Below, piece after piece: positions 262 through 56,007 of a DNA stretch of 64,000 nt; position 1 is the first letter of the stretch, and each line of letters starts with the position of its first letter. Source of the stretch: a virus (Duplodnaviria; Heunggongvirae; Uroviricota; Caudoviricetes). The notes below the pieces were generated by a model. It did no database searches. It was not told where the DNA came from and worked only from the letters and a program-made list of their open reading frames with translations. The stretch spans positions 24,841 to 88,840 of IMG/VR virus record IMGVR_UViG_2541047117_000001; one strand, written 5' to 3'. The translations under genes were made by a program, and so were the position numbers.

Positions 262-282
262 TTCATTATTTTTTACACTTGT
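262..282 (-). promoter_or_regulatory. conserved repeated element (minus-strand consensus TACAAGTGTAAAAAATAATGAA), copy 1
   Basis: near-exact match; followed by a leader hairpin 251..283. Confidence 0.6.
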
Positions 283-291
283 TGTTAAAAA

Positions 292-2040
292 TTAAAAGCT
301 CTTAGCCACTCGCTCACGAATCTCTTGTAAGCTTTCGTCACGATGCAGTTGACCATTGAAGAATACCTGCTCTAATTGGTCTTTGCCGAAGTAGCTTACT
401 TGCTGTTCCTTGTTTAAGCCATCAATTAATTTCAATTCGCCATCTTCTTCGATTACTACTACTCGACCTTTTTGAGATTTCTTCGTACCATCATCTGTTT
501 TCGGGTCTTTGTAGATTAATTTTTCTTCGCCATTAATCACTGCATACGTAGCCTTCATAGCAAATCCGAACGTGTCTCGTGTATTAAACTGGTATGTATA
601 TGAACCGATACCGAACACTACGTTAGTAGATGCGAAACCTTTATCTGCAAGACGTTTACAAATAGTCTTACAACGCTCTAATGTGATTGCATCTCCATAA
701 ATTGCTCCGATACAAGGTGCTAATACTTTGTATCCTTGCTCTGTAACAGTTCCACCAAAAATGTTCCAAAGTGCTTCAATTAATCCTAAATCTGCAACAC
801 TTGGAGTGAACTCTTCAAAGCGTTTTACTTTGTCTTCACAAATGTAATAGAATCGCTTGTCGTGACGGTCATACTCAACTTCGATTTCTAATTCATAATA
901 TTTACCATCATACTTAAATTGCCCTGAGATTTCAGTATCTCCATGTTCACCATGTGGAGTATCTTCACGCAATTCCTCCAATAGAGATTCATAGAAGTCC
1001 TGTTTAGCCTCTTCTAAGTTGCTTACATATTTTGAACCTGTAAGGTCAGGAATGTGAGCGCCACAAAGAATATCTTCAGGAATACCACTGTCAGGTCGGA
1101 TAACAACTTTACCATCACGGTTTTCAATTACTTCTTTCAGTCGTGGAATAATCTCACCGACAATGTTCCAAAAGTCCCATGTGTCAGAAACGATAGATAC
1201 AAAGCCTTTTGGGTAAACCTCTGTAATCATACGCTTGAATACTTCATACTCATTTTGACCATTCGCACACATTACTGAATGCTCTGTAGCAGGAATACTC
1301 GTTCCTACAAGTTCTTTCTCAATGTTTGCATTGTAGAACTGCTCCAAGTATAAGATTGCAGGGACAGTATCCGTTCCTACGAATGATAACAAGTGACCTG
1401 CTCCACTTTTCTGTGCTGATTGTAAAGAACTCATTCCACGCATTGAGAAATCGTGTCCTTGGAATACAACACCGTCAGTAGTTCCAACTGTCTTCATAGC
1501 GTACTCATTTAAAATCTTACGGTACTGCAACGCAATTGAAGCAGAAGTCATCCCTTGCCAAATCTCAGTGCTAAGTAATGTTTCCAAGTAATTAGTAATC
1601 CAAAAGAACTTTGGCATCGTATTTTCAATAGTCATCACTGGAACTTTCATTGGTGCTAATGTACCTTCTTTTAAAGCTTTGATTCGTACTGGTAAATATC
1701 CTAAATCATGAAGCTCGGCAATGTGAGTTGTATCAGGATTCTCTTCGCCTAAGCAGAATTTGATAACTCGTGCGTACTCTGCTAAGACAACTTCTTTCTT
1801 ACGTGCAAAGAAGTATTTGTTAAAGTAGCCGATTAAGAACTCCTTGATGAATGATTGAATCTCAAATACTACTACCTTATCAATCATAGGCATATGCTTA
1901 TTTGAACGTGGTGTCATAGTTGAATAGATTGCTTCTGTACCTTTTGGATACTGTGGGCGATGAGATAGTTTGTAGAAATCGCACAGTAAAGTTGGTGGAA
2001 GAAAGTTTTCCGTTTCAGTTGAATGAATAAAATCTGTCAT
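292..2040 (-). CDS. nadV: nicotinamide phosphoribosyltransferase family protein (NAMPT/NadV-like; could instead be a Namat-type ADPR-PP:nicotinamide transferase)
   Basis: 582 aa with the NAMPT signatures GTDTVPAI and IRPDSG; carries a ~100-aa insertion relative to canonical ~490-aa NAMPT. Confidence 0.85.
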   Translation of the reverse strand: MTDFIHSTETENFLPPTLLCDFYKLSHRPQYPKGTEAIYSTMTPRSNKHMPMIDKVVVFEIQSFIKEFLIGYFNKYFFARKKEVVLAEYARVIKFCLGEENPDTTHIAELHDLGYLPVRIKALKEGTLAPMKVPVMTIENTMPKFFWITNYLETLLSTEIWQGMTSASIALQYRKILNEYAMKTVGTTDGVVFQGHDFSMRGMSSLQSAQKSGAGHLLSFVGTDTVPAILYLEQFYNANIEKELVGTSIPATEHSVMCANGQNEYEVFKRMITEVYPKGFVSIVSDTWDFWNIVGEIIPRLKEVIENRDGKVVIRPDSGIPEDILCGAHIPDLTGSKYVSNLEEAKQDFYESLLEELREDTPHGEHGDTEISGQFKYDGKYYELEIEVEYDRHDKRFYYICEDKVKRFEEFTPSVADLGLIEALWNIFGGTVTEQGYKVLAPCIGAIYGDAITLERCKTICKRLADKGFASTNVVFGIGSYTYQFNTRDTFGFAMKATYAVINGEEKLIYKDPKTDDGTKKSQKGRVVVIEEDGELKLIDGLNKEQQVSYFGKDQLEQVFFNGQLHRDESLQEIRERVAKSF

Positions 2041-2055
2041 AATTATTAGCCCCTT

Positions 2056-2556
2056 TTAACCTTCGTATTTATAAATTGTTACACCGTAATCCTTGAAAAT
2101 ATCTTGAATCATTGGATACACAACGTTATCCCAGTCACCGTTAGCTAGACCGCATCCTAGATTGTATGGGATAGCAATTGATATCCCTAATGCGCTAGCA
2201 TCATCTCTAAGTACTGCTAAACCTTTTCGTAATGCTTCATAATTTGTGTATAAAACATTTTCTCGTCCATAGTTTAATTGACCAAAAATATTCACTACAT
2301 ACTCGTATTTATCCTCAGGCTTACTGTTTTCGTCTCGAAGATATACAGCATGAATACTTCCAAGTAAATCTTGTGGACGTTTACCGTGACATTGTGCTTG
2401 ATACATTCTATACACTTCGGGGTGTTTAGCTCTAATCTGCTTAGCTAATCCACTTCCCATCACGCCTTGGCAATTTACTTGTTGTACAATGACTTGTTCT
2501 GTTGCTTCTAGTAAGTTACCCTCTACAATTCCAATCATAGTAATGGTCGCACCCAC
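2056..2556 (-). CDS. macro domain (ADP-ribose binding/processing) protein
   Basis: 166 aa; VQQVNCQGVMGSGLAKQI resembles the MacroD VNAAN..GGGV core; translationally coupled between the NAMPT-like and Prs-like genes. Confidence 0.7.
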   Translation of the reverse strand: MGATITMIGIVEGNLLEATEQVIVQQVNCQGVMGSGLAKQIRAKHPEVYRMYQAQCHGKRPQDLLGSIHAVYLRDENSKPEDKYEYVVNIFGQLNYGRENVLYTNYEALRKGLAVLRDDASALGISIAIPYNLGCGLANGDWDNVVYPMIQDIFKDYGVTIYKYEG

Positions 2557-3344
2557 AATCTGTCGTCGTACTCTTCTTCATTTAAGATGCTGTCAGTTGT
2601 AAAGATTTTATCAATCAAATCAGTCTTTAACAGTTCACCCTTGTAAATAGAGTTCTCACAGTGAGTAACTACTAGATAGATTCTAGAAGCCCCTAATTTT
2701 TTTAACTCTGTAGCACTTCGTAGGAATGTACCACCGAATGAGCAAAGGTCATCCACAATAATTGCTGTAAATCCTGCGCCATCAACTTTACCCATCACTT
2801 CAAGACTCTCGATATTTCCGCTATCGAAATCACGTTGTTTATGACCTACGAGGTGACGGTACTTTTTAGCGGACTTGTAACGTTTAGATGCACCTGCATC
2901 GGGGAAGAAGACATAATCCGCTTCCTCATCAAACCCAACAATTTCAATCGCATCCTTTAAGATTTGCTCAGAGTAATCAATAACCTCGCATCGGTCTAAT
3001 AGAGCAGGTGTTACATCTGAGTGAGCTTCATAAACATAGACTTTCTTGAATTTCAACTTGTTAATGAAGTTTGCAACATCCTTTAGAGTGAATGCAGAAA
3101 CACCTTCGACTCTATCCATACGGCTGTAAGGCATGTACATAATCTTCAATTCTGCATTTAAGCCCATGTTTTCTAAGTAGTTTTTAACAAACATTAATCT
3201 GATTAAATCTCCATCTGTTTCATATTTGAACATGATGGTATTTTGAGTAGGATGAGCATTGGCTTTAATAAGCTTTGCATCCACTTTGGTTTCACCATTT
3301 GGAAACTCTGGAAAATCAAGTCTTGCACCATTAATTTTAATCAT
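2535..3344 (-). CDS. prs: ribose-phosphate pyrophosphokinase family protein (Prs-like; could instead be an Adps-type ADPR pyrophosphate synthetase)
   Basis: 269 aa; type I PRTase PRPP-binding loop IIVDDLCSFGGT; GGAGAGGG RBS; conserved motif 15 nt upstream. Confidence 0.7.
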   Translation of the reverse strand: MIKINGARLDFPEFPNGETKVDAKLIKANAHPTQNTIMFKYETDGDLIRLMFVKNYLENMGLNAELKIMYMPYSRMDRVEGVSAFTLKDVANFINKLKFKKVYVYEAHSDVTPALLDRCEVIDYSEQILKDAIEIVGFDEEADYVFFPDAGASKRYKSAKKYRHLVGHKQRDFDSGNIESLEVMGKVDGAGFTAIIVDDLCSFGGTFLRSATELKKLGASRIYLVVTHCENSIYKGELLKTDLIDKIFTTDSILNEEEYDDRLWVRPLL

Positions 3345-3358
3345 TTCATTCCCTCTCC

Positions 3359-3380
3359 TTCATTATTTTTTACACTTGTA
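3359..3380 (-). promoter_or_regulatory. conserved repeated element, copy 2
   Basis: exact consensus, 15 nt before the prs-like start. Confidence 0.65.
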
Positions 3381-5163: not shown

Positions 5164-5595
5164 TTATTCCTCCTCTTCGGACATTTCACAAGCATCTCCA
5201 TAACCTTCCCAGTTATCTACACCCATTGCTTCTAGACAATTTAAGAAGTGTTGGCTCTCTAGTAATCCTTCATATTCTCCTTTAGAGATGGTTGCTGTCT
5301 TAACATTGCCCTTATTCTCTTTGTACAGCTCTACTAACTCCTCACGGCTCTTGCCTAGCAATCCTTGTGTAAACTTAAATAGTTCCCAGTCGGGGAAGTC
5401 GTCATTTCGACAGAAATTACATGTCCCACTATCGTCAATGGTTTCCTGTGTTTCCTCATCAATCTCTTCTCTGAATCCTTCTGCTTTTGCACACTTGTCA
5501 GAACACCAATCATTTCCACATGGACAGCCTACATAATAGCCACAGTCAGCGAAAGTATCCTCACATTTGTTACAACATAAATAATCTACACCCAT
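5164..5595 (-). CDS. Cys-rich hypothetical protein (probable metal-binding)
   Basis: 143 aa; many CxxC pairs and an acidic C-terminal tail; conserved motif upstream. Confidence 0.5.
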   Translation of the reverse strand: MGVDYLCCNKCEDTFADCGYYVGCPCGNDWCSDKCAKAEGFREEIDEETQETIDDSGTCNFCRNDDFPDWELFKFTQGLLGKSREELVELYKENKGNVKTATISKGEYEGLLESQHFLNCLEAMGVDNWEGYGDACEMSEEEE

Positions 5596-5612: not shown

Positions 5613-5634
5613 TTCATTATTTTTTACACTTGTA
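5613..5634 (-). promoter_or_regulatory. conserved repeated element, copy 4
   Basis: exact consensus; abuts the dnaE stop codon. Confidence 0.65.
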
Positions 5635-8797: not shown

Positions 8798-8819
8798 TTC
8801 ATTATTTTTTACACTTGTT
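8798..8819 (-). promoter_or_regulatory. conserved repeated element, copy 5
   Basis: AACAAGTGTAAAAAATAATGAA, directly upstream of dnaE. Confidence 0.6.
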
Positions 8820-11246: not shown

Positions 11247-11268
11247 TTCATTATTTTTTACACTTGTA
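11247..11268 (-). promoter_or_regulatory. conserved repeated element, copy 8
   Basis: exact consensus. Confidence 0.65.
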
Positions 11269-12106: not shown

Positions 12107-13408
12107 TTAATAATAACTTGGCTCATCTTTGCCTGTTACGCATTTGAAAACAGGGAATCTAAGTGACAATCCTCCTGATTCATTTTTACTCTCTTCGAAG
12201 TAGCTTACTGCAATAATCTTTCCAAGTAAAACATTTTGATTTTTCCAGTAGTATTCTCGCTCTTGGTCTGTGAATCCACTACCTACTTTAACCTCATAAT
12301 CTTCCTTGTATTGAATGACAACAGCTCCAAGTTTGCCAGTATTCTTCCCCGTACCTTCTTCGAGTCGAATAACACGCTCATCTATCTCATGCATCTTCTT
12401 AACTTTCAACAGATTGCTTGTACGCTTACATTCGTAAACTCCATCTACTCGGTTTACCATGACACCTTCTTTGTTTTCTAGAATCATTTGGTCAAGATAA
12501 TGAGCAATCATGTTTTTGTCTGAGCCAACATAAAGCAATGGAACTAATTCTAGATGTTTGAATTGTACAAATGTAGATGCGAAGATTTCCATTAACTTTT
12601 TACGACGCTTCTTGTAAATTACCTCCGAACGTCCCTCATGGAACTCATCTGCTGTTAAGATATCAAAGATATGGAACGTTAAGCCCATCTTCTCTCCGTC
12701 TTTTCTAACAACCTTTTGCGTAGCTCGGAATAGGTCATCGCTTGATAATCCCTCTTCATTTTTAAGAAGCAGTTCTCCATCATATACAAAGCCATCGGGC
12801 AATAATGCAATCTCTGCTGTAATTTCAACTAAATCTAGCACTGGTTGTCCTTGACGTGTGAAGAATTTAATCGTTCCACTCTCCTTAACACATACTACTC
12901 GGTTTCCATCTAACTTCTCTGTGACAGCAAATTCACCTGTTAACTTGTTCGCCTCATCTGAGTAAGCTTTAGCTAGTTGTACATTAAACTCAGGAATGAA
13001 TTTCTCTCCGAACGACTTATTGATTGTTTTTGCAGTAATACCGCTCTTAAATGACTTCGTGAACAGCTCTTTAAAGAATACAATCTCACTTGGAATCATT
13101 AATGTTCCCAAGAAATATTGAACTACAGCAATGTCACTATCACGACCGCTATTGTGTGCTTTTAAATATTCAAGTACATCTAACCCATTTTCAAATTTAT
13201 GCTCAGCAGGCAACTCTAAGAATCGCTCTGTGCTTAGCTTTTTATTAACCTTCTTCTTGCTTAGTCCTGTAATAACATATGGATTGTAAAGGAAGTCCAA
13301 TACATATCGTAGTTCCTCATTCTCCTTATGTTGCTTTAGGATTGTCTCCTTGACAGTTCTACTAGAGTCCGCTTTGATTCGCTCTAGAATTTCAATTACA
13401 TTTTCCAT
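12107..13408 (-). CDS. ATP-dependent DNA ligase
   Basis: 433 aa; nucleotidyltransferase motif I KLDGNR. Confidence 0.7.
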   Translation of the reverse strand: MENVIEILERIKADSSRTVKETILKQHKENEELRYVLDFLYNPYVITGLSKKKVNKKLSTERFLELPAEHKFENGLDVLEYLKAHNSGRDSDIAVVQYFLGTLMIPSEIVFFKELFTKSFKSGITAKTINKSFGEKFIPEFNVQLAKAYSDEANKLTGEFAVTEKLDGNRVVCVKESGTIKFFTRQGQPVLDLVEITAEIALLPDGFVYDGELLLKNEEGLSSDDLFRATQKVVRKDGEKMGLTFHIFDILTADEFHEGRSEVIYKKRRKKLMEIFASTFVQFKHLELVPLLYVGSDKNMIAHYLDQMILENKEGVMVNRVDGVYECKRTSNLLKVKKMHEIDERVIRLEEGTGKNTGKLGAVVIQYKEDYEVKVGSGFTDQEREYYWKNQNVLLGKIIAVSYFEESKNESGGLSLRFPVFKCVTGKDEPSYY

Positions 13409-13591
13409 TTAACCCCTCCTGCTACTCTTGGCTGTGCTAGACATCAATATTGGAACTATGATAGAACCAACAAGTGCAATCACACATGCAAAACCTAACA
13501 CTGGTGAACCTCCGATGATGAGAACTGGGATAGCAATTGTTAGTGCCATCCCTATGAAAATCCCAAACAGAAACACTGTTGGCTTAGTCAT
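13409..13591 (-). CDS. small membrane protein
   Basis: 60 aa, two TM helices; conserved motif upstream. Confidence 0.4.
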   Translation of the reverse strand: MTKPTVFLFGIFIGMALTIAIPVLIIGGSPVLGFACVIALVGSIIVPILMSSTAKSSRRG

Positions 13592-23464: not shown

Positions 23465-24655
23465 TTACAGCAACCAAATACCAACGATAGTTGCACTGAT
23501 TAAATTTGCTAAAAGTCCTGCTACAATTGCACGAAGTCCGTACTTAGCAACAATACCTCGTTTCTCAGGAGCGAGAACACCAAGACTTCCCAATAAAATA
23601 CCAATAGATGAGAAGTTTGCGAAGCCACCGATACCAATAGTCAGCATAGCAATTGTACGAGTATCCATTTGTGCCATCTCTTTTGCCATTGCAGAATAAG
23701 CAATAAACTCATTCGTTGCGAACTTCTGACCTAATAATTGACTTGCTGTCATTACTTGGTCATGGCTTACATTCATTAGGAATGCGAGTGGATAGAATAA
23801 GTATCCAAGCAACTGTTCAAGTGATACACCAAAGTTTCCTAAGATACCATTTACTAATGCAATTAATGCTACGAAAGCAATTAACATTGTAGCTGTAGCA
23901 CAAGCGATTTGCATACCACTCATTGCACCATTTGAAATTGCTTCGAAAATATTAGCCGAACCTTGCTTACGGTCAAGTTCAATCTTGCCGTTCGTTTGGC
24001 TCTCTTCTGTTTCGGGAACAATTAGTTTTGCTACCAATAAACTAGAACCTGTAACCATGAAACACGCCACAAGTAACCATTCTAACGGGATACCCATTAA
24101 GTTGTATCCGATTAAGATTGAACCTGCCATAGAACCTGTTCCTGCAACCATTACCGCAAACAGCTCTGCTTTCGTCAGATGTTTTAGATATGGTTTAATG
24201 AATGTCGGAACTTCGTTTTGTGATGCAAAGATATTCATAACTGCACTAAATGTTTCTACTCGTGTAGTACCAAGTAGTTTAGATAATGCACCACCCACAT
24301 ATTTAACAAAGAACTGAATGACATTCAGATAGAATAACACAGCGAATAACGCTCCAAAGAATACGATTACCATCAATACATTGATTGCAAATACAAATGT
24401 TGTATGCTCATTAAAGAATCCGCCAAATACGAACATGATTCCATCTGTTGCATAGCTTGAGATTTTTGTATAACCATCCGATAACCATTTCATTGCTTGT
24501 TGACCTGCGCTTGTTACTAATAAGTAAGCTAATAGGAATTGCATAGCTAAAGCCGTTCCAATCGTTCGCCACTTAATTTTCTTCTTATTTTCAGATAGCA
24601 AGAATGCTAATCCCATTAGACCAATAAGACCTAATACTGATATTAAAATCTGCAC
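23465..24655 (-). CDS. nupC: concentrative nucleoside transporter (NupC/CNT family)
   Basis: 396 aa polytopic membrane protein; N-terminus MQILISVLGLIGLMGLAFLLSENKKKIKWRT matches the NupC pattern. Confidence 0.7.
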   Translation of the reverse strand: MQILISVLGLIGLMGLAFLLSENKKKIKWRTIGTALAMQFLLAYLLVTSAGQQAMKWLSDGYTKISSYATDGIMFVFGGFFNEHTTFVFAINVLMVIVFFGALFAVLFYLNVIQFFVKYVGGALSKLLGTTRVETFSAVMNIFASQNEVPTFIKPYLKHLTKAELFAVMVAGTGSMAGSILIGYNLMGIPLEWLLVACFMVTGSSLLVAKLIVPETEESQTNGKIELDRKQGSANIFEAISNGAMSGMQIACATATMLIAFVALIALVNGILGNFGVSLEQLLGYLFYPLAFLMNVSHDQVMTASQLLGQKFATNEFIAYSAMAKEMAQMDTRTIAMLTIGIGGFANFSSIGILLGSLGVLAPEKRGIVAKYGLRAIVAGLLANLISATIVGIWLL

Positions 24656-26645: not shown

Positions 26646-26667
26646 TTCATTATTTTTTACACTTGTG
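26646..26667 (-). promoter_or_regulatory. conserved repeated element, copy 13
   Basis: CACAAGTGTAAAAAATAATGAA, upstream of dut. Confidence 0.6.
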
Positions 26668-31485: not shown

Positions 31486-31507
31486 TTCATTATTTTTTAC
31501 ACTTGTA
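31486..31507 (-). promoter_or_regulatory. conserved repeated element, copy 14
   Basis: exact consensus; abuts the nrdI start region. Confidence 0.65.
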
Positions 31508-32693: not shown

Positions 32694-33782
32694 TTATTTT
32701 AAGCTAACATGTACCTCTTTAGCCTTCTTGTCTATTAGTTCTTTTGCCATTCTCACAAACCCACTCTTACCTTTAGTGTGTAAAGAATCACATGGGATAT
32801 CATTATCCTTACAAAGCTGATTTGCTAAGATAGTACCTCTATGCTTGACGTAGCTCAGCATTAACACAACTGCGTCTGCATCTTTCATAGTTGCTTCAAA
32901 TCTTGACTCATCTTCCATTCCATGAAGACATTCGAATTGTCCACCATGTCTTTCAACTGCATCCTTGAAGCTAGCCTTTTCTACATCGAATCCAACCATA
33001 ACAACCTTTTTACCTGCAAGGAATTGTTCGTACTTCTTCTTCTCTATGATAGGCTTCTTAGGTTCTTTCCTGATGTTTGATGTGTACTGTCTTTTGTATT
33101 CATCTGCTGTTGCATGTTTCCAAACAACACGGCTGAAATCAAGGTCATTTTTATCTACGCTGATATCAACAATATCTCCTGTCATGATGTTAAAACTTCT
33201 AAAATCACTGTCTGAGATAATAATCTCCGTTTCATTACCATTGACTATAATGGGATTATCCATCCAATCCTTACTAGCCTTATAATGATTGCTTGCAGGG
33301 TCAAGTTCTACAACAGCCATTTTAATTGAAATTACATCGGATAGACTATCACAACCGCAATCATCTAATACTGTGTACTTATATCGCTTGTCACCAATCT
33401 TCTCGGCTTTAACGATGTCTCCATGCTGTAGTCCAAGCTCTCTGATAAATCTTTCGGGAACATATATGTCCGTTCCTTCTAAAAATCCACCTTTGATATT
33501 TCTCCTAAACTCGTAACCCTCAGCTTTGTTCTCTGTATGTAACTGAATTGTATCTCCACTTAAACTAACGACATTTGATTGATTAGGCTCATTCGCTTCT
33601 TCGCTCACTTCATTTATCCCATTAATAATATGAGGCAATTGGCTATAAGCTTTTGCAAAGTCTAAGTATTTCACAACATCACTATAAACTTGGTCTATAT
33701 TTGCAACTTCTAAAGAGTCTACTATTTTTATAATGTTTTGTTTTGCTGATTCTATAATTTGTTTTTCCATTTGTAGTACCAT
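32694..33782 (-). CDS. hypothetical protein
   Basis: 362 aa; three motif copies upstream. Confidence 0.5.
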   Translation of the reverse strand: MVLQMEKQIIESAKQNIIKIVDSLEVANIDQVYSDVVKYLDFAKAYSQLPHIINGINEVSEEANEPNQSNVVSLSGDTIQLHTENKAEGYEFRRNIKGGFLEGTDIYVPERFIRELGLQHGDIVKAEKIGDKRYKYTVLDDCGCDSLSDVISIKMAVVELDPASNHYKASKDWMDNPIIVNGNETEIIISDSDFRSFNIMTGDIVDISVDKNDLDFSRVVWKHATADEYKRQYTSNIRKEPKKPIIEKKKYEQFLAGKKVVMVGFDVEKASFKDAVERHGGQFECLHGMEDESRFEATMKDADAVVLMLSYVKHRGTILANQLCKDNDIPCDSLHTKGKSGFVRMAKELIDKKAKEVHVSLK

Positions 33783-37856: not shown

Positions 37857-38861
37857 TTAGTGTGCTAGAGTATCCGCATCTCGCAAGATTTCTAACATCT
37901 CGTATGTTTCATCTCCTACAAGTCGTCTTAGTCTCTTCTGACCTTTTTCACCTGCATTAAGCAGAACCATGTGGAACTGAATCAGTTTAGTGACTTGAAG
38001 GATAAAATCATCATTATGTACTGCTTTAGCAAGAATTGAGCTAGCCATTTGCGCTCCTACATTCTCATGTGAGATGAAGTTTGCATAGCGTGTTTCCTCA
38101 CCGTCACGGCTCTCAAAATTCTTACAGTATGGTTTGCCAATATCATGAAGCAGTGCAGTCCACAGCATCACTAATCGGTCATATTCACTTCCATTATCAA
38201 AGTTGTCAAAGACATATTTGTATACATGGTATACATGGCGACTCACAGAGAATGAATGGTATTTCGAATCCTGTGGCATGTTATACATGGCTAAGAACTC
38301 AGGGAAATACCCCATAAGACCTGTCATGATTTCTTCATGAGTTCCGCCACTTTGAACAATCTTCATAATGTTTCTGCGGTCTTCAATATCAAATACACCC
38401 TCTTGACGTTGAATGATATATACATCATCCCAACCTTCCTCTTTGATTGGTACATTTAAGCTCTTGTATGAGCGCTCAATCACGAAAGGTGGTACTGGTT
38501 TTCCTCTTAATCCATTATCTAAAAGAGCTACTTCAACAGCCGTATTAATGTAATACACAAACTTCATAGCACCAGTCGCTTTAAAAGTCTTATTAAGTCG
38601 TTGAAGTAATCCGATTCTACGGTTACGATTGATATTTGTTGCATCATATACAACACTTTTTCCTTGCATTAGAGCTTCCACGGTTCGCTCAAACATTAGA
38701 GCAAACACATCCTGACTATTGCGCTCATGGTCTTCACCATTTAACTCTTTACCAATCACGTCAGAGGAAAGCAGAACTGCATTATCTCTTTCTGCTAGAA
38801 GCTCTGCGAATGATGTTTTTCCGCTTGCAGGGATGCCTACCATCATCATAAATTTAAGCAT
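37857..38861 (-). CDS. pnk: polynucleotide 5'-kinase fused to an HD-domain phosphohydrolase (RNA end-healing enzyme)
   Basis: N-terminal P-loop GIPASGKTSF; C-terminal HD motif ALLHDIGKP. Confidence 0.65.
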   Translation of the reverse strand: MLKFMMMVGIPASGKTSFAELLAERDNAVLLSSDVIGKELNGEDHERNSQDVFALMFERTVEALMQGKSVVYDATNINRNRRIGLLQRLNKTFKATGAMKFVYYINTAVEVALLDNGLRGKPVPPFVIERSYKSLNVPIKEEGWDDVYIIQRQEGVFDIEDRRNIMKIVQSGGTHEEIMTGLMGYFPEFLAMYNMPQDSKYHSFSVSRHVYHVYKYVFDNFDNGSEYDRLVMLWTALLHDIGKPYCKNFESRDGEETRYANFISHENVGAQMASSILAKAVHNDDFILQVTKLIQFHMVLLNAGEKGQKRLRRLVGDETYEMLEILRDADTLAH

Positions 38862-39990
38862 CTTCTTCCTCTCCCTCTTTGATGAACTCTCTGTAGTTTT
38901 TGTAGATATACATCTTGATTACATCAATGTTAATCTCCTTGCTGTCGTAGCCTGTGAAGATTAGAGATTGATATTTCTTCTCTAGAGATTCATTATTTTT
39001 TACATTTGTAGCGAAATCTTTACGAGTCTCTGCATTAGCAAGACACTCTTCTAATATGTATTGAAGATTCGTAGTAATCGTCACAGCAAGTGCATCCCAT
39101 TGCTCTTGGAATGATTCCACTTCCTTGCGGAACTCTTCGGGAACTTGCTCGATTAATTCTTTCATTTTGCCAGTATGCCAAGCTTCTAGTTTTCGCTTGA
39201 GTGATAATCCGTAAGCTACACGGTGTACAGCCATATAATCATCGCCTTTTACCTTTAATCGCTTACCACTATCCCACTGCAATACCCAACCTTCTTCATT
39301 GGCAGGGATTTCACTCTTCATTTTGATTGCTTCATCAATGGTTAAATCTACTTGCTCAGTCACGGGCATATCTAACATTTGACCGACAGCTTTCAACGAA
39401 TCCATTGTTAAATCAATTGGAAACTTACCTCGGATGTCGATAGCTCCGATAAGAACTAAGTCAGACATTCCTTCGTAATCCACGACGATTCTTGTCTTAG
39501 GGTCGATGATTTCAACTAAAAGAGTAATTCCTCGTAGTGTTTCACGAAGCTTCTCATCTTTAATTATTTTGGTAGCATACTTTCTATCCCAAATTTCATT
39601 CGCAATAAATGCCTGCTTAGATTCGAAAGAGCCTCTAGTAGCCCAAAATAAAGCATTACCCATCATATAACTAATGCCTAATGAGCCATCGTGCTTCACT
39701 GTTAATGTCGGCGGATTACAATCACATCGTGGAATATCACGCTGATACTCTAAATTCTCATCTACATTGAAGAACTTTGGAAACGGCTTAGCAACGACTT
39801 CTAATGTATTCGTATCAAGGATTAATCCTCGTGCCATCATTGTTTCATTATTCCATCGACGGTCAACAACAGCTCGGTTTGTATAATTGAGAATTACTAG
39901 ATTCTTAAACCAAGGATGTCGTTTTTCAGCAATGTAGCCCTCTTCCTTTTCAAGTTGGAACTTCTTATAGTCCGCTAAAGTGAACTGCAT
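38854..39990 (-). CDS. rnl: RNA ligase (Rnl1-type nucleotidyltransferase)
   Basis: 378 aa; motif I KHDGSL, as in T4 RnlA KEDGSL; overlaps and is co-transcribed with pnk. Confidence 0.65.
   Translation of the reverse strand: MQFTLADYKKFQLEKEEGYIAEKRHPWFKNLVILNYTNRAVVDRRWNNETMMARGLILDTNTLEVVAKPFPKFFNVDENLEYQRDIPRCDCNPPTLTVKHDGSLGISYMMGNALFWATRGSFESKQAFIANEIWDRKYATKIIKDEKLRETLRGITLLVEIIDPKTRIVVDYEGMSDLVLIGAIDIRGKFPIDLTMDSLKAVGQMLDMPVTEQVDLTIDEAIKMKSEIPANEEGWVLQWDSGKRLKVKGDDYMAVHRVAYGLSLKRKLEAWHTGKMKELIEQVPEEFRKEVESFQEQWDALAVTITTNLQYILEECLANAETRKDFATNVKNNESLEKKYQSLIFTGYDSKEINIDVIKMYIYKNYREFIKEGEEEDA
38989..39010 (-). promoter_or_regulatory. conserved repeated element, copy 19; lies inside the RNA ligase coding sequence
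   Basis: TACAAATGTAAAAAATAATGAA, encoding ...ATNVKNNES... of the ligase; ~125 nt upstream of pnk. Confidence 0.55.
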
Positions 39991-40000
39991 TCTAGCACCT

Positions 40001-40228
40001 CTATTCTTTATTCTGTTTTTCGTACTCTTTGATAATTTGACATTTCTTCAAATACCTGTACCATGCTTTAGAACCTATCTCGTCAACAGCTTTGCATTTA
40101 GGACAGAAGCAAGTAACCATAACGATTCTTTTGTACTTCCCATAGCTACCGATGGTCTCTGTTCTTTCGTCGAGATATTTCCATTCATGTTCACATCTCT
40201 TAAACAAGTTGCTTAACCACTTGAACAT
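40001..40228 (-). CDS. zinc-ribbon protein
   Basis: 75 aa with CEHEW...CFCPKC. Confidence 0.4.
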   Translation of the reverse strand: MFKWLSNLFKRCEHEWKYLDERTETIGSYGKYKRIVMVTCFCPKCKAVDEIGSKAWYRYLKKCQIIKEYEKQNKE

Positions 40229-40232
40229 CTAA

Positions 40233-40814
40233 TTACATCTCTTTTACGTCAACTTTGTACTCAATTGAGTTACATAGCATCTTAGCGAACTTCTCAATCT
40301 CTTCTTTGACAGTACGAGTTTTAGTGAATAATGACTTGCGCTCACTCGCTTTCGCTTTCTTTCGGCTCTCTACTACTTCTACTTGAGCTTTTAAAGACTT
40401 CAATTGAGCATCTAATCCATCAAGCTCGATATCAACCTTATTTACTTCTTCTTGCATTGCTAACTCAGCAACTTCTAACTCTGTATTTAAACCTTGAATA
40501 TCTTCAAGTAAATCTTTTGCAATCTTGCGGTTTGTCTTGTCAGAATAACCGTAATCCGTTTTATATAATGTAACTAACGCTGTGTTGTCAGTATCGGCTA
40601 CTAAAATGATGTCACCGTTAATATAGAAATTTCGAGTGATATTTGACTCACCCAACTGTCCCTTCCAAATGAAGATGGCATGTTCCATCATCTTTTTGGC
40701 GTCCTCTGTAATCTTGTCATGATTTGCAGTTACGAAGACATTGATTTCCTCTTTACCTTTGATGCCCTTGATACGTTGAGCATATCGTCTTTTGCAATGT
40801 TTTGTTACGTTCAT
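40233..40814 (-). CDS. coiled-coil hypothetical protein
   Basis: 193 aa; GAGGGG RBS; motif upstream. Confidence 0.5.
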   Translation of the reverse strand: MNVTKHCKRRYAQRIKGIKGKEEINVFVTANHDKITEDAKKMMEHAIFIWKGQLGESNITRNFYINGDIILVADTDNTALVTLYKTDYGYSDKTNRKIAKDLLEDIQGLNTELEVAELAMQEEVNKVDIELDGLDAQLKSLKAQVEVVESRKKAKASERKSLFTKTRTVKEEIEKFAKMLCNSIEYKVDVKEM

Positions 40815-45330: not shown

Positions 45331-45352
45331 TTCATTATTTTTTACACTTGTA
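45331..45352 (-). promoter_or_regulatory. conserved repeated element, copy 23
   Basis: exact consensus upstream of the RecJ-like gene; a leader hairpin follows at 45310..45330. Confidence 0.65.
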
Positions 45353-55946: not shown

Positions 55947-55985
55947 AGAAGAAAAGGATATACTTCTCCCCTCCATGTATGTAAT

Positions 55986-56007
55986 TCATTATTTTTTACA
56001 CTTGTAA
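55986..56007 (-). promoter_or_regulatory. conserved repeated element, copy 26b
   Basis: exact consensus; a 7-bp-stem hairpin at 55944..55968 lies between the two copies. Confidence 0.65.

What the first reader, a model, noticed from the sequence alone, without database searches (positions are those of the whole stretch)
292..3344. NAMPT-like, macro domain and Prs-like cassette: candidate phage NAD+ reconstitution module (NARP1-like, with an added macro domain)
Three translationally coupled genes encode a NAMPT-family enzyme (GTDTV and IRPDSG signatures, with a ~100-aa insertion), a macro domain protein and a PRPP-synthetase-family enzyme (DDLCSFGGT loop; short at 269 aa). Two phage NAD+ reconstitution pathways are known, NARP1 (Adps, a Prs homolog, plus Namat, a NAMPT homolog) and NARP2 (NadV plus NMNAT). 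They counter NAD+-depleting defences such as Thoeris, DSR, SEFIR and some CBASS effectors. This pair could be either classical NadV plus Prs or the Adps/Namat pair; sequence read by eye cannot tell them apart. The macro domain between them is not part of either described pathway. It could funnel ADPR derivatives (cADPR isomers, 1''-phosphate or O-acetyl-ADPR, protein or DNA ADP-ribose adducts) into ADPR for the Adps step, or reverse DarT-type DNA ADP-ribosylation. No NMNAT was seen in the window.
Basis: partly seen in the sequence, partly recalled or inferred. Interest (0 to 1): 0.8.

Follow-up and report, generated by a model that had tools for sequence, protein, structure and literature searches.

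The report
Phage NAD+ rebuilding operon with phosphatase
This is a three-gene phage operon that most likely rebuilds the cell's NAD+ after bacterial immune systems destroy it; the same gene trio was described in 2026 as "NARP1-AP", so this is a new Gram-positive example of a known counter-defence system, not a new kind of system.

Summary
Three tightly packed minus-strand genes (3344..292) encode a Prs-like protein, a macro-domain protein and a NAMPT-like protein.

The Prs-like and NAMPT-like proteins are Adps and Namat (NARP1), not Prs and NadV:
- They are 54% and 67% identical to the biochemically validated SPβL1 enzymes.
- The Namat-specific motif is present (GSYTYQFNTRD).
- All 22 NAD+/nicotinamide contact residues and the Adps catalytic lysine are conserved.
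- Every curated Prs model scores below its cutoff.

The macro gene lies between adps and namat, in the same order as the published "NARP1-AP" operon of Vibrio phage Gary (bioRxiv, January 2026). There the macro protein, Adpp, converts ADPR-1''-phosphate (made by aRES defence) into ADPR for NARP1.

The DarG (anti-DarT) alternative is disfavoured, because the catalytic lysine is replaced by an invariant glutamine.

New details:
- This is the first operon-form example from a Firmicute (Bacillus cereus group) ~150-kb phage-like element.
- The macro subfamily was not sampled in the paper and has Gln where Poa1p and Gary have His.
- Namat carries a folded ~85-aa insertion.
- The macro gene is a divergence hot spot.

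Interest is modest.

The parts
3359..3379 (-). Upstream copy of a recurrent 21-nt promoter-like motif, ACAAGTGTAAAAAATAATGAA. It is followed directly by the RBS GGAGAGGG and the adps ATG.
   Evidence: 30 copies in the window, all on the coding strand, against 0.01 expected by chance. This copy ends 14 nt before the adps start.
2535..3344 (-). adps: ADP-ribose pyrophosphokinase (Adps, Prs-family), 269 aa. Predicted reaction: ADPR + ATP -> ADPR-PP.
   Evidence: 54% identical to validated SPβL1 Adps, 31% to Gary Adps, 24% to B. subtilis Prs. Catalytic K162 maps to K169. It falls in phrog_619 with both reference Adps. All NCBIfam Prs models score below their cutoffs, for example TIGR01251 at 90 against 113.
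2056..2538 (-). adpp-like macro-domain gene, 160 aa (ATG 2538; the longest ORF starts at GTG 2556). Predicted ADPR-1''-phosphate phosphatase feeding ADPR to Adps.
   Evidence: ATGA overlap with the adps stop. P0001 is a 100% match over 160 aa. It falls in phrog_335 together with three published Adpp types. It scores 119 bits against an HMM of 11 published Adpps, versus 59-63 for DarG. Gln87 occupies the DarG K80 position. The model has pLDDT 94.9, and its fold matches DarG, Poa1p and TARG1 at TM 0.7-0.8.
292..2040 (-). namat: nicotinamide ADP-ribose transferase (Namat, NAMPT-family), 582 aa. Predicted reaction: ADPR-PP + nicotinamide -> NAD+.
   Evidence: 67% identical to the crystallised SPβL1 Namat (717 bits to 9w5w/9w5x against 218 for human NAMPT). 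The SCH motif GSYTYQFNTRD is at aa 479-489. All 22 ligand contacts are conserved or conservatively replaced.
787..1056 (-). Insertion within namat (aa ~329-418). It is predicted as a folded alpha+beta subdomain: a helix at 342-360 and three strands at 370-377, 380-391 and 399-411.
   Evidence: block pLDDT 78-95. There is no Pfam or PDB sequence match. It is shared by more than 100 long-form Namat clusters. It is the most variable part of Namat within the lineage.
262..282 (-). Next copy of the 21-nt promoter-like motif, 10 nt after the namat stop codon. It marks the start of the following transcription unit.

Best explanation
The cassette is a NARP1-AP operon (adps - adpp - namat) carried by a ~153-kb Bacillus cereus-group phage-like element. 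That element is distantly related to Geobacillus virus E3 and the Tsamsa-like siphoviruses.

Proposed mechanism: host NAD+-depleting defences cleave NAD+ during infection.
1. Canonical NADases (Thoeris ThsA, DSR, SIR2/TIR/SEFIR effectors) yield ADPR + nicotinamide.
2. Adps pyrophosphorylates ADPR with ATP to give ADPR-PP.
3. Namat joins ADPR-PP to nicotinamide to regenerate NAD+.
4. RES-type defences (aRES) instead yield ADPR-1''-phosphate, which Adps cannot use. The macro protein (Adpp) removes the 1''-phosphate and returns ADPR to the pathway.

Shown here: gene order and coupling, homology, and conservation of the catalytic and specificity residues of Adps and Namat. Also shown: the macro protein belongs to the same profile family as validated Adpp, and it lacks the DarG/TARG1 catalytic lysine.

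Inferred from published work on homologs: all enzymatic activities, the ADPR-1''-P substrate of this particular macro subfamily, and the defence systems countered in Bacillus.
For: Published framework:
- NARP1 was defined in doi 10.1101/2024.02.11.579819.
- NARP1-AP was shown with the same gene order in Vibrio phage Gary. All three genes were required against aRES, and purified Adpp converts ADPR-1P to ADPR.

Namat:
- 67% identity to SPβL1 Namat and 45% to Gary Namat.
- Best PDB hits are the Namat crystal entries.
- The published Namat-only motif GS-X-phi-X-phi-X-phi-TRD reads GSYTYQFNTRD here, against GSGGGLLQKLTRD in human NAMPT.
- Contact residues are conserved.

Adps:
- 54% identity to SPβL1 Adps and 49% to FADO Adps.
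- K169 is conserved.
- The protein fails every curated Prs cutoff.
- It is adjacent to Namat, as are 97% of the Adps clade.

Macro:
- tblastn hit to Gary Adpp at 31% identity over 95% of the query, E = 2e-11.
- Same PHROG and same profile region as Gary, JG004 and RYC Adpps.
- 119 bits to the published-Adpp HMM, against 53-63 for DarG and TARG1.
- Active-site motifs are invariant across a fast-diverging lineage.

Operon:
- ATGA overlap and a 15-nt spacer at the two junctions.
- Bounded by two copies of the promoter-like motif.
- The same cassette occurs in at least four related ~150-kb elements.

Rationale: predicted aRES genes are listed for B. cereus genomes. No NMNAT homolog is present in the window.
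Against: - No activity was measured for any of the three proteins.
- The macro protein belongs to a Firmicute-type subfamily absent from the published NARP1-AP list: its motifs QQVNC, HQVNC and FGQLNYG are not found in Table S1.
- The macro protein is only 31-37% identical to published Adpps. That is about the same raw identity as to DarG macrodomains (29-32%).
- It scores higher on DarG models than Gary Adpp does (74 against 35 bits).
- It has Gln19 where Poa1p (His23, a residue mutated in PDB 6lfs), TARG1 (His32), Gary Adpp (His24) and 85 of 117 of its own family have His. The effect on phosphatase chemistry is unknown.
- In all isolated Bacillus phages examined, the homologous macro gene lies 24-38 kb from NARP1. 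Its function may therefore not be tied strictly to NARP1.
- The residues Osterman et al. mutated in Adpp appear only in a figure, so I could not check them.
Confidence: 0.8

Rival explanations
1. The Adps/Namat core is as described, but this Firmicute-type macro protein (Gln19 variant) is not an ADPR-1''-P phosphatase. Instead it would process a different ADPR derivative into ADPR. Candidates are O-acetyl-ADPR, ADPR-2''-P, products of ADPR-cyclic-phosphate (the spontaneous decay product of ADPR-PP), or a Thoeris-type signal. Alternatively it might only bind or sequester such a molecule.
For: - Gln replaces the His conserved in Poa1p, TARG1, Gary and all sampled Gram-negative Adpps.
- The subfamily is not represented in the published set.
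- It groups with unlinked Firmicute phage macros rather than with Gram-negative Adpps, although bootstrap support is only 61%.
- ADPR-PP is reported to decay to ADPR-cP, which gives an alternative internal source of phosphorylated ADPR.
- The central part of the gene is swapped or diverged between otherwise 95%-identical relatives. This could reflect changing substrates or interactions.
Against: - His and Gln alternate freely (85 against 32 of 117) within one family whose other binding motifs are invariant. That suggests functional equivalence.
- NARP1-linked macros L014 and L020, from other lineages, also carry Gln.
- The protein has the same operon position as the validated Adpp and a strong match to the Adpp profile.
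- RyDEP, not a macro domain, is the only enzyme reported to cleave gcADPR.
Confidence: 0.12
2. The macro protein is a DarG-like DNA ADP-ribosyl glycohydrolase. It would protect phage DNA from DarT toxins and would be unrelated functionally to the flanking NAD+ genes.
For: - The best sequence and fold matches among solved structures are DarG macrodomains: 5m3i at 41 bits and TM 0.79.
- The best NCBIfam hit is antitoxin_DarG at 74 bits.
Against: - The DarG score is far below the 250-bit cutoff, and only the macro half aligns.
- The catalytic Lys (DarG K80, TARG1 K84) is Gln in 117 of 117 family members.
- TARG1 Asp125 is Ala here.
- The validated Gary Adpp also hits TARG1 and DarG better than Poa1p, so this similarity reflects the clade and not the function.
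- The gene start overlaps the adps stop inside the NARP1 operon.
Confidence: 0.04
3. The pair is a classical Prs + NadV (NAMPT) pair making PRPP and NMN. This would be a NARP2-like or generic salvage route that needs an NMNAT encoded elsewhere.
For: - Pfam, PHROG and NCBIfam names say Prs and NAMPT/NAPRTase.
- Namat enzymes retain some PRPP-dependent NMN synthesis in vitro.
- The window covers less than half of the element, so an NMNAT could lie outside it.
Against: - The Namat-specific SCH motif and adenine-stacking residues are present.
- Identity is 67% and 54% to enzymes shown not to act as NAMPT or Prs in the pathway.
- Every curated Prs model scores below its cutoff.
- No NatV-type NMNAT is present in the window.
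- Adps-Namat adjacency is the hallmark of NARP1.
Confidence: 0.03

Closest known systems
NARP1-AP of Vibrio phage Gary (Adps GARY_181 - Adpp GARY_182 - Namat GARY_183; Osterman et al., bioRxiv 2026, doi 10.64898/2026.01.28.702374)
   Same: - The same three families occur in the same order, with start/stop overlap between adps and the macro gene.
- All three proteins fall in the same PHROGs.
- Namat has an insertion at the same site.
- The macro protein has Gln at the DarG/TARG1 catalytic-Lys position and the GCGLAxGDW motif.
   Different: - Identities are only 31% (Adps), 31-33% (macro) and 45% (Namat).
- The host is Gram-positive.
- The macro protein belongs to a different subfamily, with Gln19 instead of His24 and no 4-residue insert after the GD motif.
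- The Namat insertion is about 40 aa longer.
NARP1 of Bacillus phage SPβL1 (Adps + Namat; Osterman et al. 2024; Namat crystal structures 9w5w/9w5x, PMC12774641)
   Same: These are the closest validated enzymes, at 54% and 67% identity. The catalytic Lys and His and all ligand contacts are conserved, and the SCH motif is present.
   Different: - SPβL1 has no macro gene between adps and namat.
- Its Namat is the short form, 491 aa with no insertion.
- Its SCL stacking residue is Arg40, where the window has Lys48-His49 (the Bas63/Gary type).
Tsamsa-like and FADO-like Bacillus phages (Tsamsa, Izhevsk, Kirov, PBC2, FADO, PJN02 and others)
   Same: - They carry long-form Namat with the same insertion (65-68% identity) and Adps at 47-49% identity.
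- A homologous macro protein is encoded in the same genome (36-42% identity), in places annotated 'Poa1p-like'.
- NARP1 lies near the Pol III alpha gene.
   Different: The macro gene lies 24-38 kb from NARP1, not inside the operon. An adjacency-based NARP1-AP search would miss these phages.
Saccharomyces cerevisiae Poa1p (ADPR-1''-phosphate phosphatase; PDB 6lfq-6lfu), with DarG and TARG1 macrodomains
   Same: They share the macro-fold class (TM 0.70-0.80). The N-terminal binding motif xNCxGxxGxGIA aligns with Poa1p.
   Different: - Identity to Poa1p is 18-20%.
- Poa1p His23 corresponds to Gln19 here.
- The DarG K80 / TARG1 K84 position is Gln87, and TARG1 D125 is Ala.

Membership tests
Namat (NARP1 nicotinamide ADP-ribose transferase) | [quoted passage not shown] The motif is absent from Nampt. 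| tested here: met
   The window has GSYTYQFNTRD (aa 479-489). SPβL1 has GSFTYQYNTRD, Gary has GSFTYQYVTRD, and human NAMPT has GSGGGLLQKLTRD.
Namat (NARP1 nicotinamide ADP-ribose transferase) | Selectivity-clamp loop (beta1-beta2) whose third residue is Arg, Lys or Tyr and supplies an adenine-stacking residue. | tested here: met
   SPβL1 R40 aligns with window K48, which is followed by H49 (TPRSNKH). This is the Lys-type loop described for Bas63 and also seen in Gary. Whether it actually stacks on adenine was not modelled.
Namat (NARP1 nicotinamide ADP-ribose transferase) | Conserved Nampt-like catalytic core (catalytic His, plus equivalents of R306, D215 and F189). | tested here: met
   H254, R315, D224 and F198 are present, along with the 18 other contact residues, identical or conservatively replaced.
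Namat (NARP1 nicotinamide ADP-ribose transferase) | Prefers ADPR-PP over PRPP and produces NAD+ directly. | not testable with these tools
   This needs an enzyme assay.
Adps (NARP1 ADP-ribose pyrophosphokinase) | Belongs to the phage Adps clade, separate from cellular Prs. | tested here: met
   Identity is 54% to SPβL1 Adps and 49% to FADO Adps, against 24% to B. subtilis Prs. The best PDB Prs hit is only 44 bits. All 11 NCBIfam Prs models score below their cutoffs. No full phylogeny was built.
Adps (NARP1 ADP-ribose pyrophosphokinase) | Encoded next to a Namat gene (true for 97% of the clade). | tested here: met
   adps and namat are in the same operon, separated only by the 483-nt macro gene.
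Adps (NARP1 ADP-ribose pyrophosphokinase) | Catalytic lysine equivalent to SPβL1 K162 / B. subtilis Prs K197. | tested here: met
   K162 maps to K169 in the motif GHKQR.
Adps (NARP1 ADP-ribose pyrophosphokinase) | Converts ADPR + ATP to ADPR-PP and does not make PRPP. | not testable with these tools
   This needs an enzyme assay.
Adpp (NARP1-AP macro-domain ADPR-1''-P phosphatase) | Macro-domain protein encoded within two genes of a NARP1 operon (the published detection criterion). | tested here: met
   It lies between adps and namat. It matches Pfam PF01661 above the gathering score (22.5 against 22). The macro fold is modelled at pLDDT 94.9.
Adpp (NARP1-AP macro-domain ADPR-1''-P phosphatase) | Homologous to validated Adpp (Gary) and to Poa1p. 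| tested here: met
   - tblastn to Gary Adpp gives E = 2e-11 over 95% of the query.
- It shares phrog_335 with published Adpp types.
- It scores 119 bits to the HMM of published Adpps.
- Poa1p matches with TM 0.76-0.80 and E about 1e-3 by sequence.
Adpp (NARP1-AP macro-domain ADPR-1''-P phosphatase) | Conservation of the residues shown by mutation to be needed for activity. | tested here: inconclusive
   The Adpp mutants are named only in a figure that is not held. As a proxy, the Poa1p residues mutated in the PDB entries were mapped. His23 corresponds to Gln19 here; Gary has His, and the family shows His in 85 and Gln in 32 of 117. Ser30 is not conserved even in Gary.
Adpp (NARP1-AP macro-domain ADPR-1''-P phosphatase) | Dephosphorylates ADPR-1''-P to ADPR and is required to overcome aRES. 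| not testable with these tools
   This needs enzyme and infection assays.
DarG (DNA ADP-ribosyl glycohydrolase antitoxin) | Catalytic lysine (K80) in the PTKxHW loop. | tested here: not met
   The window has FGQLNYG, with Gln87 at that position. Gln is invariant in 117 of 117 family members.
DarG (DNA ADP-ribosyl glycohydrolase antitoxin) | C-terminal DarT-binding domain, a neighbouring darT gene, and a full-length match to NF048014. | tested here: not met
   The protein is only 160 aa. It scores 74 bits against a cutoff of 250, with only profile positions 2-147 of 338 matched. Its neighbours are adps and namat.
Prs (ribose-phosphate pyrophosphokinase) | Score above the curated family cutoffs (TIGR01251 and the PRK equivalogs). 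| tested here: not met
   TIGR01251 scores 90 against a cutoff of 113. The equivalogs score 36-66 against cutoffs of 287-536.
NARP2 (Nampt + Nmnat) | An NMNAT (NatV-like) gene in the genome, and a Nampt-type SCH region. | tested here: not met
   No NatV homolog is present in the window, although the rest of the element was not examined. The SCH region is of the Namat type.

The most novel reading that the evidence does not exclude
Firmicute phages may have assembled NARP1-AP independently, using a distinct macro subfamily. That subfamily shows a His/Gln dimorphism at the Poa1p-His23 position and sits closer to DarG.

Its preferred substrate might not be aRES-derived ADPR-1''-P. It could instead be another phosphorylated or modified ADPR species produced by Gram-positive defences, or by decay of ADPR-PP itself.

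The folded ~85-aa Namat insertion and the hypervariable macro surface could be interaction or evasion surfaces in this arms race.

A corollary is that many Bacillus phages (FADO, Tsamsa-like) may run a 'split' NARP1-AP, with the macro gene 24-38 kb away. The published 15% prevalence would then be an underestimate.
Probability: 0.15. Interest if true: 0.6.

Novelty: new member of a known kind. Interest (0 to 1): 0.3.

Why it matters
The finding extends the recently described NARP1-AP counter-defence pathway from Gram-negative phages to a large Bacillus cereus-group phage-like element. This host group is where Thoeris and other NAD+-depleting defences are prominent and where aRES homologs are predicted.

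It also gives three practical leads:
1. Adjacency-based surveys probably undercount NARP1-AP, because related Bacillus phages encode the macro gene tens of kilobases away from NARP1.
2. The natural His/Gln dimorphism is a ready-made test of which residue matters for ADPR-1''-P phosphatase chemistry in this macro clade.
3. The long-form Namat carries an undescribed folded insertion whose role is unknown.

None of this changes the picture of how the pathway works.

Tried and rejected
- **The 21-nt repeat as a mobile-cassette boundary.** I first suspected the identical 21-nt strings flanking the cassette were recombination or moron boundaries. This was rejected: the motif occurs 30 times across the window, always upstream of genes.
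- **Fold search to separate Poa1p-like from DarG-like.** DarG, Poa1p and TARG1 all match at TM 0.7-0.8, so the test does not discriminate. Sequence search of the PDB fails in the same way, because the validated Gary Adpp also prefers TARG1 and DarG.
- **Finding the Adpp residues mutated by Osterman et al.** They are not in the text or in Table S4. The Poa1p structure paper is not in the library.
- **Identifying the Namat insertion by sequence.** There is no Pfam hit, and the only PDB hits are chance-level HDAC8 matches. The fold tools cannot search a sub-region of a model, so its fold class remains unassigned.
- **Plasmid collection.** No match, so the element is not a catalogued plasmid.
- **tRNA and Rfam scans.** Nothing was found.
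- **Tree building.** The first NJ bootstrap run timed out. The second was corrupted by NaN distances. It was redone with a Poisson correction. The deep split still has only 61% support, so 'independent recruitment' remains an inference.
- TARG1 reproduces the published K84 and D125 numbering, and the 24% identity of the window Adps to B. subtilis Prs is similar to the 27% the NARP1 paper reports for SPβL1 Adps. They should still be treated as approximate.

Full report
**Observation**

The window carries three consecutive minus-strand ORFs at the stated coordinates:
- a Prs-like protein, 3344..2535 (269 aa);
- a macro-domain protein, 2556/2538..2056;
- a NAMPT-like protein, 2040..292 (582 aa).

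Pfam, PHROG and NCBIfam scans assign them to Pribosyl_synth/phrog_619, Macro/phrog_335 ('phosphatase') and NAPRTase+NAMPT_N/phrog_448.

At base level, the adps stop and the macro ATG overlap as ATGA. A database protein identical over exactly 160 aa confirms ATG 2538 as the start (P0001). The macro stop is followed by a 15-nt spacer with an AAGGGG RBS and then the NAMPT-like ATG.

**What the flanking enzymes are**

The open question was Prs/NadV versus Adps/Namat. The evidence favours Adps/Namat.

For the 582-aa protein:
- It is 67% identical to SPβL1 Namat and 45% to Vibrio phage Gary Namat, but 32% to human NAMPT.
- Its best solved-structure matches are the Namat crystal entries 9w5w/9w5x at 717 bits, against about 215 bits for NAMPTs.
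- The structural paper on Namat (PMC12774641) defines a Namat-only 'selectivity clamp' helix motif, GS-X-phi-X-phi-X-phi-TRD, with aromatic residues that stack on the adenine of ADPR-PP. The window reads GSYTYQFNTRD, whereas NAMPT reads GSGGGLLQKLTRD.
- All 22 NAM/NAD+ contact residues of the crystal structure map to identical or conservative residues. These include the catalytic His254 and Arg315 (= R306). The clamp-loop residue is Lys48-His49, the Bas63/Gary type.

For the 269-aa protein:
- It is 54% identical to SPβL1 Adps, an enzyme shown to pyrophosphorylate ADPR and not to act as a Prs.
- It is 49% identical to FADO Adps and 24% to B. subtilis Prs.
- It keeps the catalytic lysine, K162 -> K169.
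- It falls below the curated cutoff of every NCBIfam Prs model.

A KVP40 NatV-type NMNAT is not detectable in the window.

**The macro gene and the literature**

A January 2026 preprint from the Sorek laboratory (doi 10.64898/2026.01.28.702374) reports the following:
- 15% of NARP1 operons carry a macro-domain gene.
- RES-domain defence proteins (aRES) cleave NAD+ to nicotinamide plus ADPR-1''-phosphate, which Adps cannot use.
- The macro protein, named Adpp and homologous to yeast Poa1p, dephosphorylates ADPR-1''-P to ADPR.
- The three-gene operon Adps-Adpp-Namat of Vibrio phage Gary ('NARP1-AP') overcomes aRES only when all three genes are intact.

The Gary locus has the same gene order and the same adps/macro overlap.

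**Is the window's macro protein an Adpp?**

Evidence that it is:
- It hits Gary Adpp at 31% identity over 95% of its length, E = 2e-11.
- As a positive control, the Gary, JG004 and RYC Adpps all fall in phrog_335 over the same profile region as the window protein.
- An HMM built from 11 published Adpps scores the window protein at 119 bits, against 59-63 for DarG macrodomains and 53 for TARG1.
- In a multiple alignment, the catalytic lysine of DarG (K80) and TARG1 (K84) is Gln in every Adpp and in the window protein (FGQLNYG). TARG1 Asp125 is Ala.
- In 117 homologs this Gln is invariant.

These points, together with the missing C-terminal DarG domain and a 74-bit score against a 250-bit cutoff, argue against a DarG-type anti-DarT role.

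Fold comparison does not help. A pLDDT-94.9 model matches DarG, Poa1p and TARG1 equally at TM 0.7-0.8. The validated Gary Adpp itself matches TARG1 and DarG better than Poa1p by sequence.

Caveats:
- The window protein belongs to a Firmicute-type subfamily whose motifs are absent from the paper's Table S1, which lists no Firmicute phage.
- This subfamily sits closer to DarG than the Gram-negative Adpps do. On the DarG model the window, E3, FADO and Izhevsk score 71-79 bits, against 35 for Gary.
- It has Gln19 where Poa1p His23 (mutated in PDB 6lfs), Gary His24 and 85 of 117 family members have His. The strict His/Gln alternation within a family of otherwise invariant binding motifs suggests equivalence, but this is untested.

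**Context and relatives**

- The window is the replication and nucleotide-metabolism arm of a large phage-like element. It encodes Pol III alpha, RNR, DNA and RNA ligases, a kinase-HD protein, RecJ, primase, DnaB, thymidine kinase, a nucleoside transporter, an integrase-family protein and a replication initiator.
- The exact macro protein occurs in Bacillus cereus assemblies on contigs of up to 152,852 bp.
- Pol III alpha is 62-64% identical to those of Geobacillus virus E3 and the Tsamsa-like phages.
- No plasmid record matches.
- The same adps-macro-namat cassette, at the same position downstream of Pol III alpha, occurs in related ~150-kb contigs from B. thuringiensis and B. bombysepticus and in an IMG/VR contig (L004, L033-L035). 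In L033 an extra 156-aa gene sits between adps and the macro gene.
- In every isolated Bacillus phage that has both genes, the macro homolog lies 24-38 kb from adps. These include FADO, PK-3, PJN02, 2S-4, Kirov, Izhevsk, Tsamsa, PBC2, BcoS-136, the Thrax phages, Skywalker, Chewbecca and KoopaTroopa.
- A bootstrapped NJ tree puts the cassette macros in one clade (97% support) among the unlinked Firmicute macros. The split from the Gram-negative Adpps has only 61% support. Independent capture of the macro gene into the operon is therefore plausible but not proven.
- Predicted aRES genes are listed for B. cereus genomes, so a target for Adpp exists in this host group.

**Additional features of the cassette**

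1. *Macro gene divergence.* Between the window and L034/L035, Adps, Namat and Pol III alpha are 94-97% identical, but the macro protein is only 62% identical. Nucleotide identity falls to 37-64% only across window ~2485-2215, with conserved gene ends. The binding and catalytic motifs stay invariant while residues ~37-82 and ~100-117 vary. This looks like allelic replacement or rapid surface divergence over a constrained active site.
2. *Namat insertion.* Residues ~329-418 form a confidently predicted helix plus three-stranded sheet. The insertion has no Pfam or PDB sequence match and is not mentioned in the Namat structure paper. It is shared by more than 100 long-form Namat clusters, including those of the Tsamsa-like phages. 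It is the most variable part of Namat within the lineage. Gary has a shorter insertion at the same site.
3. *Transcription unit.* The cassette is bracketed by two exact copies of a 21-nt motif that occurs 30 times in the window, all on the coding strand and typically 15-25 nt upstream of a start codon. This suggests the cassette is its own transcription unit.

**Mechanism and verdict**

The best-supported explanation is a NARP1-AP operon:
- Adpp converts ADPR-1''-P from RES-type NAD+ cleavage into ADPR.
- Adps converts ADPR + ATP to ADPR-PP.
- Namat joins ADPR-PP to nicotinamide to rebuild NAD+.

This would counter both canonical NADase defences and aRES. The identities of Adps and Namat are very well supported. 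The specific substrate of this macro subfamily is inferred. A possible secondary role is recycling phosphorylated ADPR that arises from the spontaneous decay of ADPR-PP to ADPR-cP; this is my own speculation.

The finding is a new Firmicute member of a known, recently published kind of system. Its interest is modest and lies in the details: the distinct macro subfamily with the His/Gln dimorphism, the possibility of 'split' NARP1-AP in other Bacillus phages, and the Namat insertion.

Noticed in passing
window, 30 sites on the minus strand (e.g. 3379..3359, 282..262, 5633..5613, 8818..8798, 11267..11247, 26666..26646, 31506..31486, 45351..45331, 56005..55985): The 21-nt motif ACAAGTGTAAAAAATAATGAA occurs 30 times (12 exact copies, the rest with up to 3 mismatches), against 0.01 expected by chance. 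Every copy is on the coding strand in an intergenic gap, usually 15-25 nt upstream of an RBS and start codon. There is no conserved -35-like element, and upstream it is only T-rich. It is probably a phage-specific promoter or 5' regulatory element.
   Followed up: partly
window 2215-2485 (central part of the macro gene), compared with L034/L035: The middle gene of the operon is a sharp divergence patch. Nucleotide identity is 37-64% there, against 93-99% in the flanking adps and namat. Protein identity is 62%, against 94-97% for the neighbours. The active-site motifs are nevertheless invariant.
   Followed up: yes
L033:5516-5986 (B. thuringiensis GCA_030547405.1 relative): In one related element an extra 156-aa gene sits between adps and the macro gene. 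It has only a weak match to phrog_2729 'virion structural protein' (3e-9) and a faint Pfam YomU_Tube hit. It has no homolog in the window.
   Followed up: partly
window 5164-5595 (-): A 143-aa protein about 1.8 kb upstream of the cassette has a C-terminal T7 gp5.9 RecBCD-inhibitor domain (PF25708, 2.8e-19). The stretch between Pol III alpha and the cassette therefore looks like an anti-defence region.
   Followed up: no
L032-L035, downstream of namat (beyond window position 1): In the source contig and its relatives, the genes just past the window edge include Pfam families YAcAr (a SLOG family), YqeY, Had1 and Acb5. The last two are named after anti-defence proteins.
   Followed up: no
window 37857-39990 (-): Adjacent genes encode a kinase (AAA_33) + HD-domain protein and an Rnl-type RNA ligase. 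This is a likely RNA/tRNA-repair pair. Gary also has RNA ligases flanking its NARP1-AP.
   Followed up: no
window 23465-24655 (-): The phage encodes a CNT/NupC-family Na+-dependent nucleoside transporter (PF07662 at 1.3e-62, PF01773, PF07670). This is an unusual auxiliary gene for a phage. Its substrate is unknown.
   Followed up: no
window 32694-33782 (-): A 362-aa protein combines a Rho RNA-binding-like domain (PF07497, 4e-08) with DUF2325 (2e-13). It has no PHROG match.
   Followed up: no
Bacillus phages FADO (macro at 13,008-13,478; adps at 39,523-40,293), Tsamsa, Izhevsk, Kirov, PBC2 and others: These isolated phages carry both NARP1 and an Adpp-like macro gene, but 24-38 kb apart. The published search (within two genes of NARP1) would not count them as NARP1-AP.
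   Followed up: partly
L021-L031 (cyanobacterial genomes): Macro domains of this family (35-41% identical, with the QQVNCQG motif) occur at the N-terminus or inside very long (640 to over 970 aa) multidomain proteins in Nostocales and Fischerella genomes.
   Followed up: no
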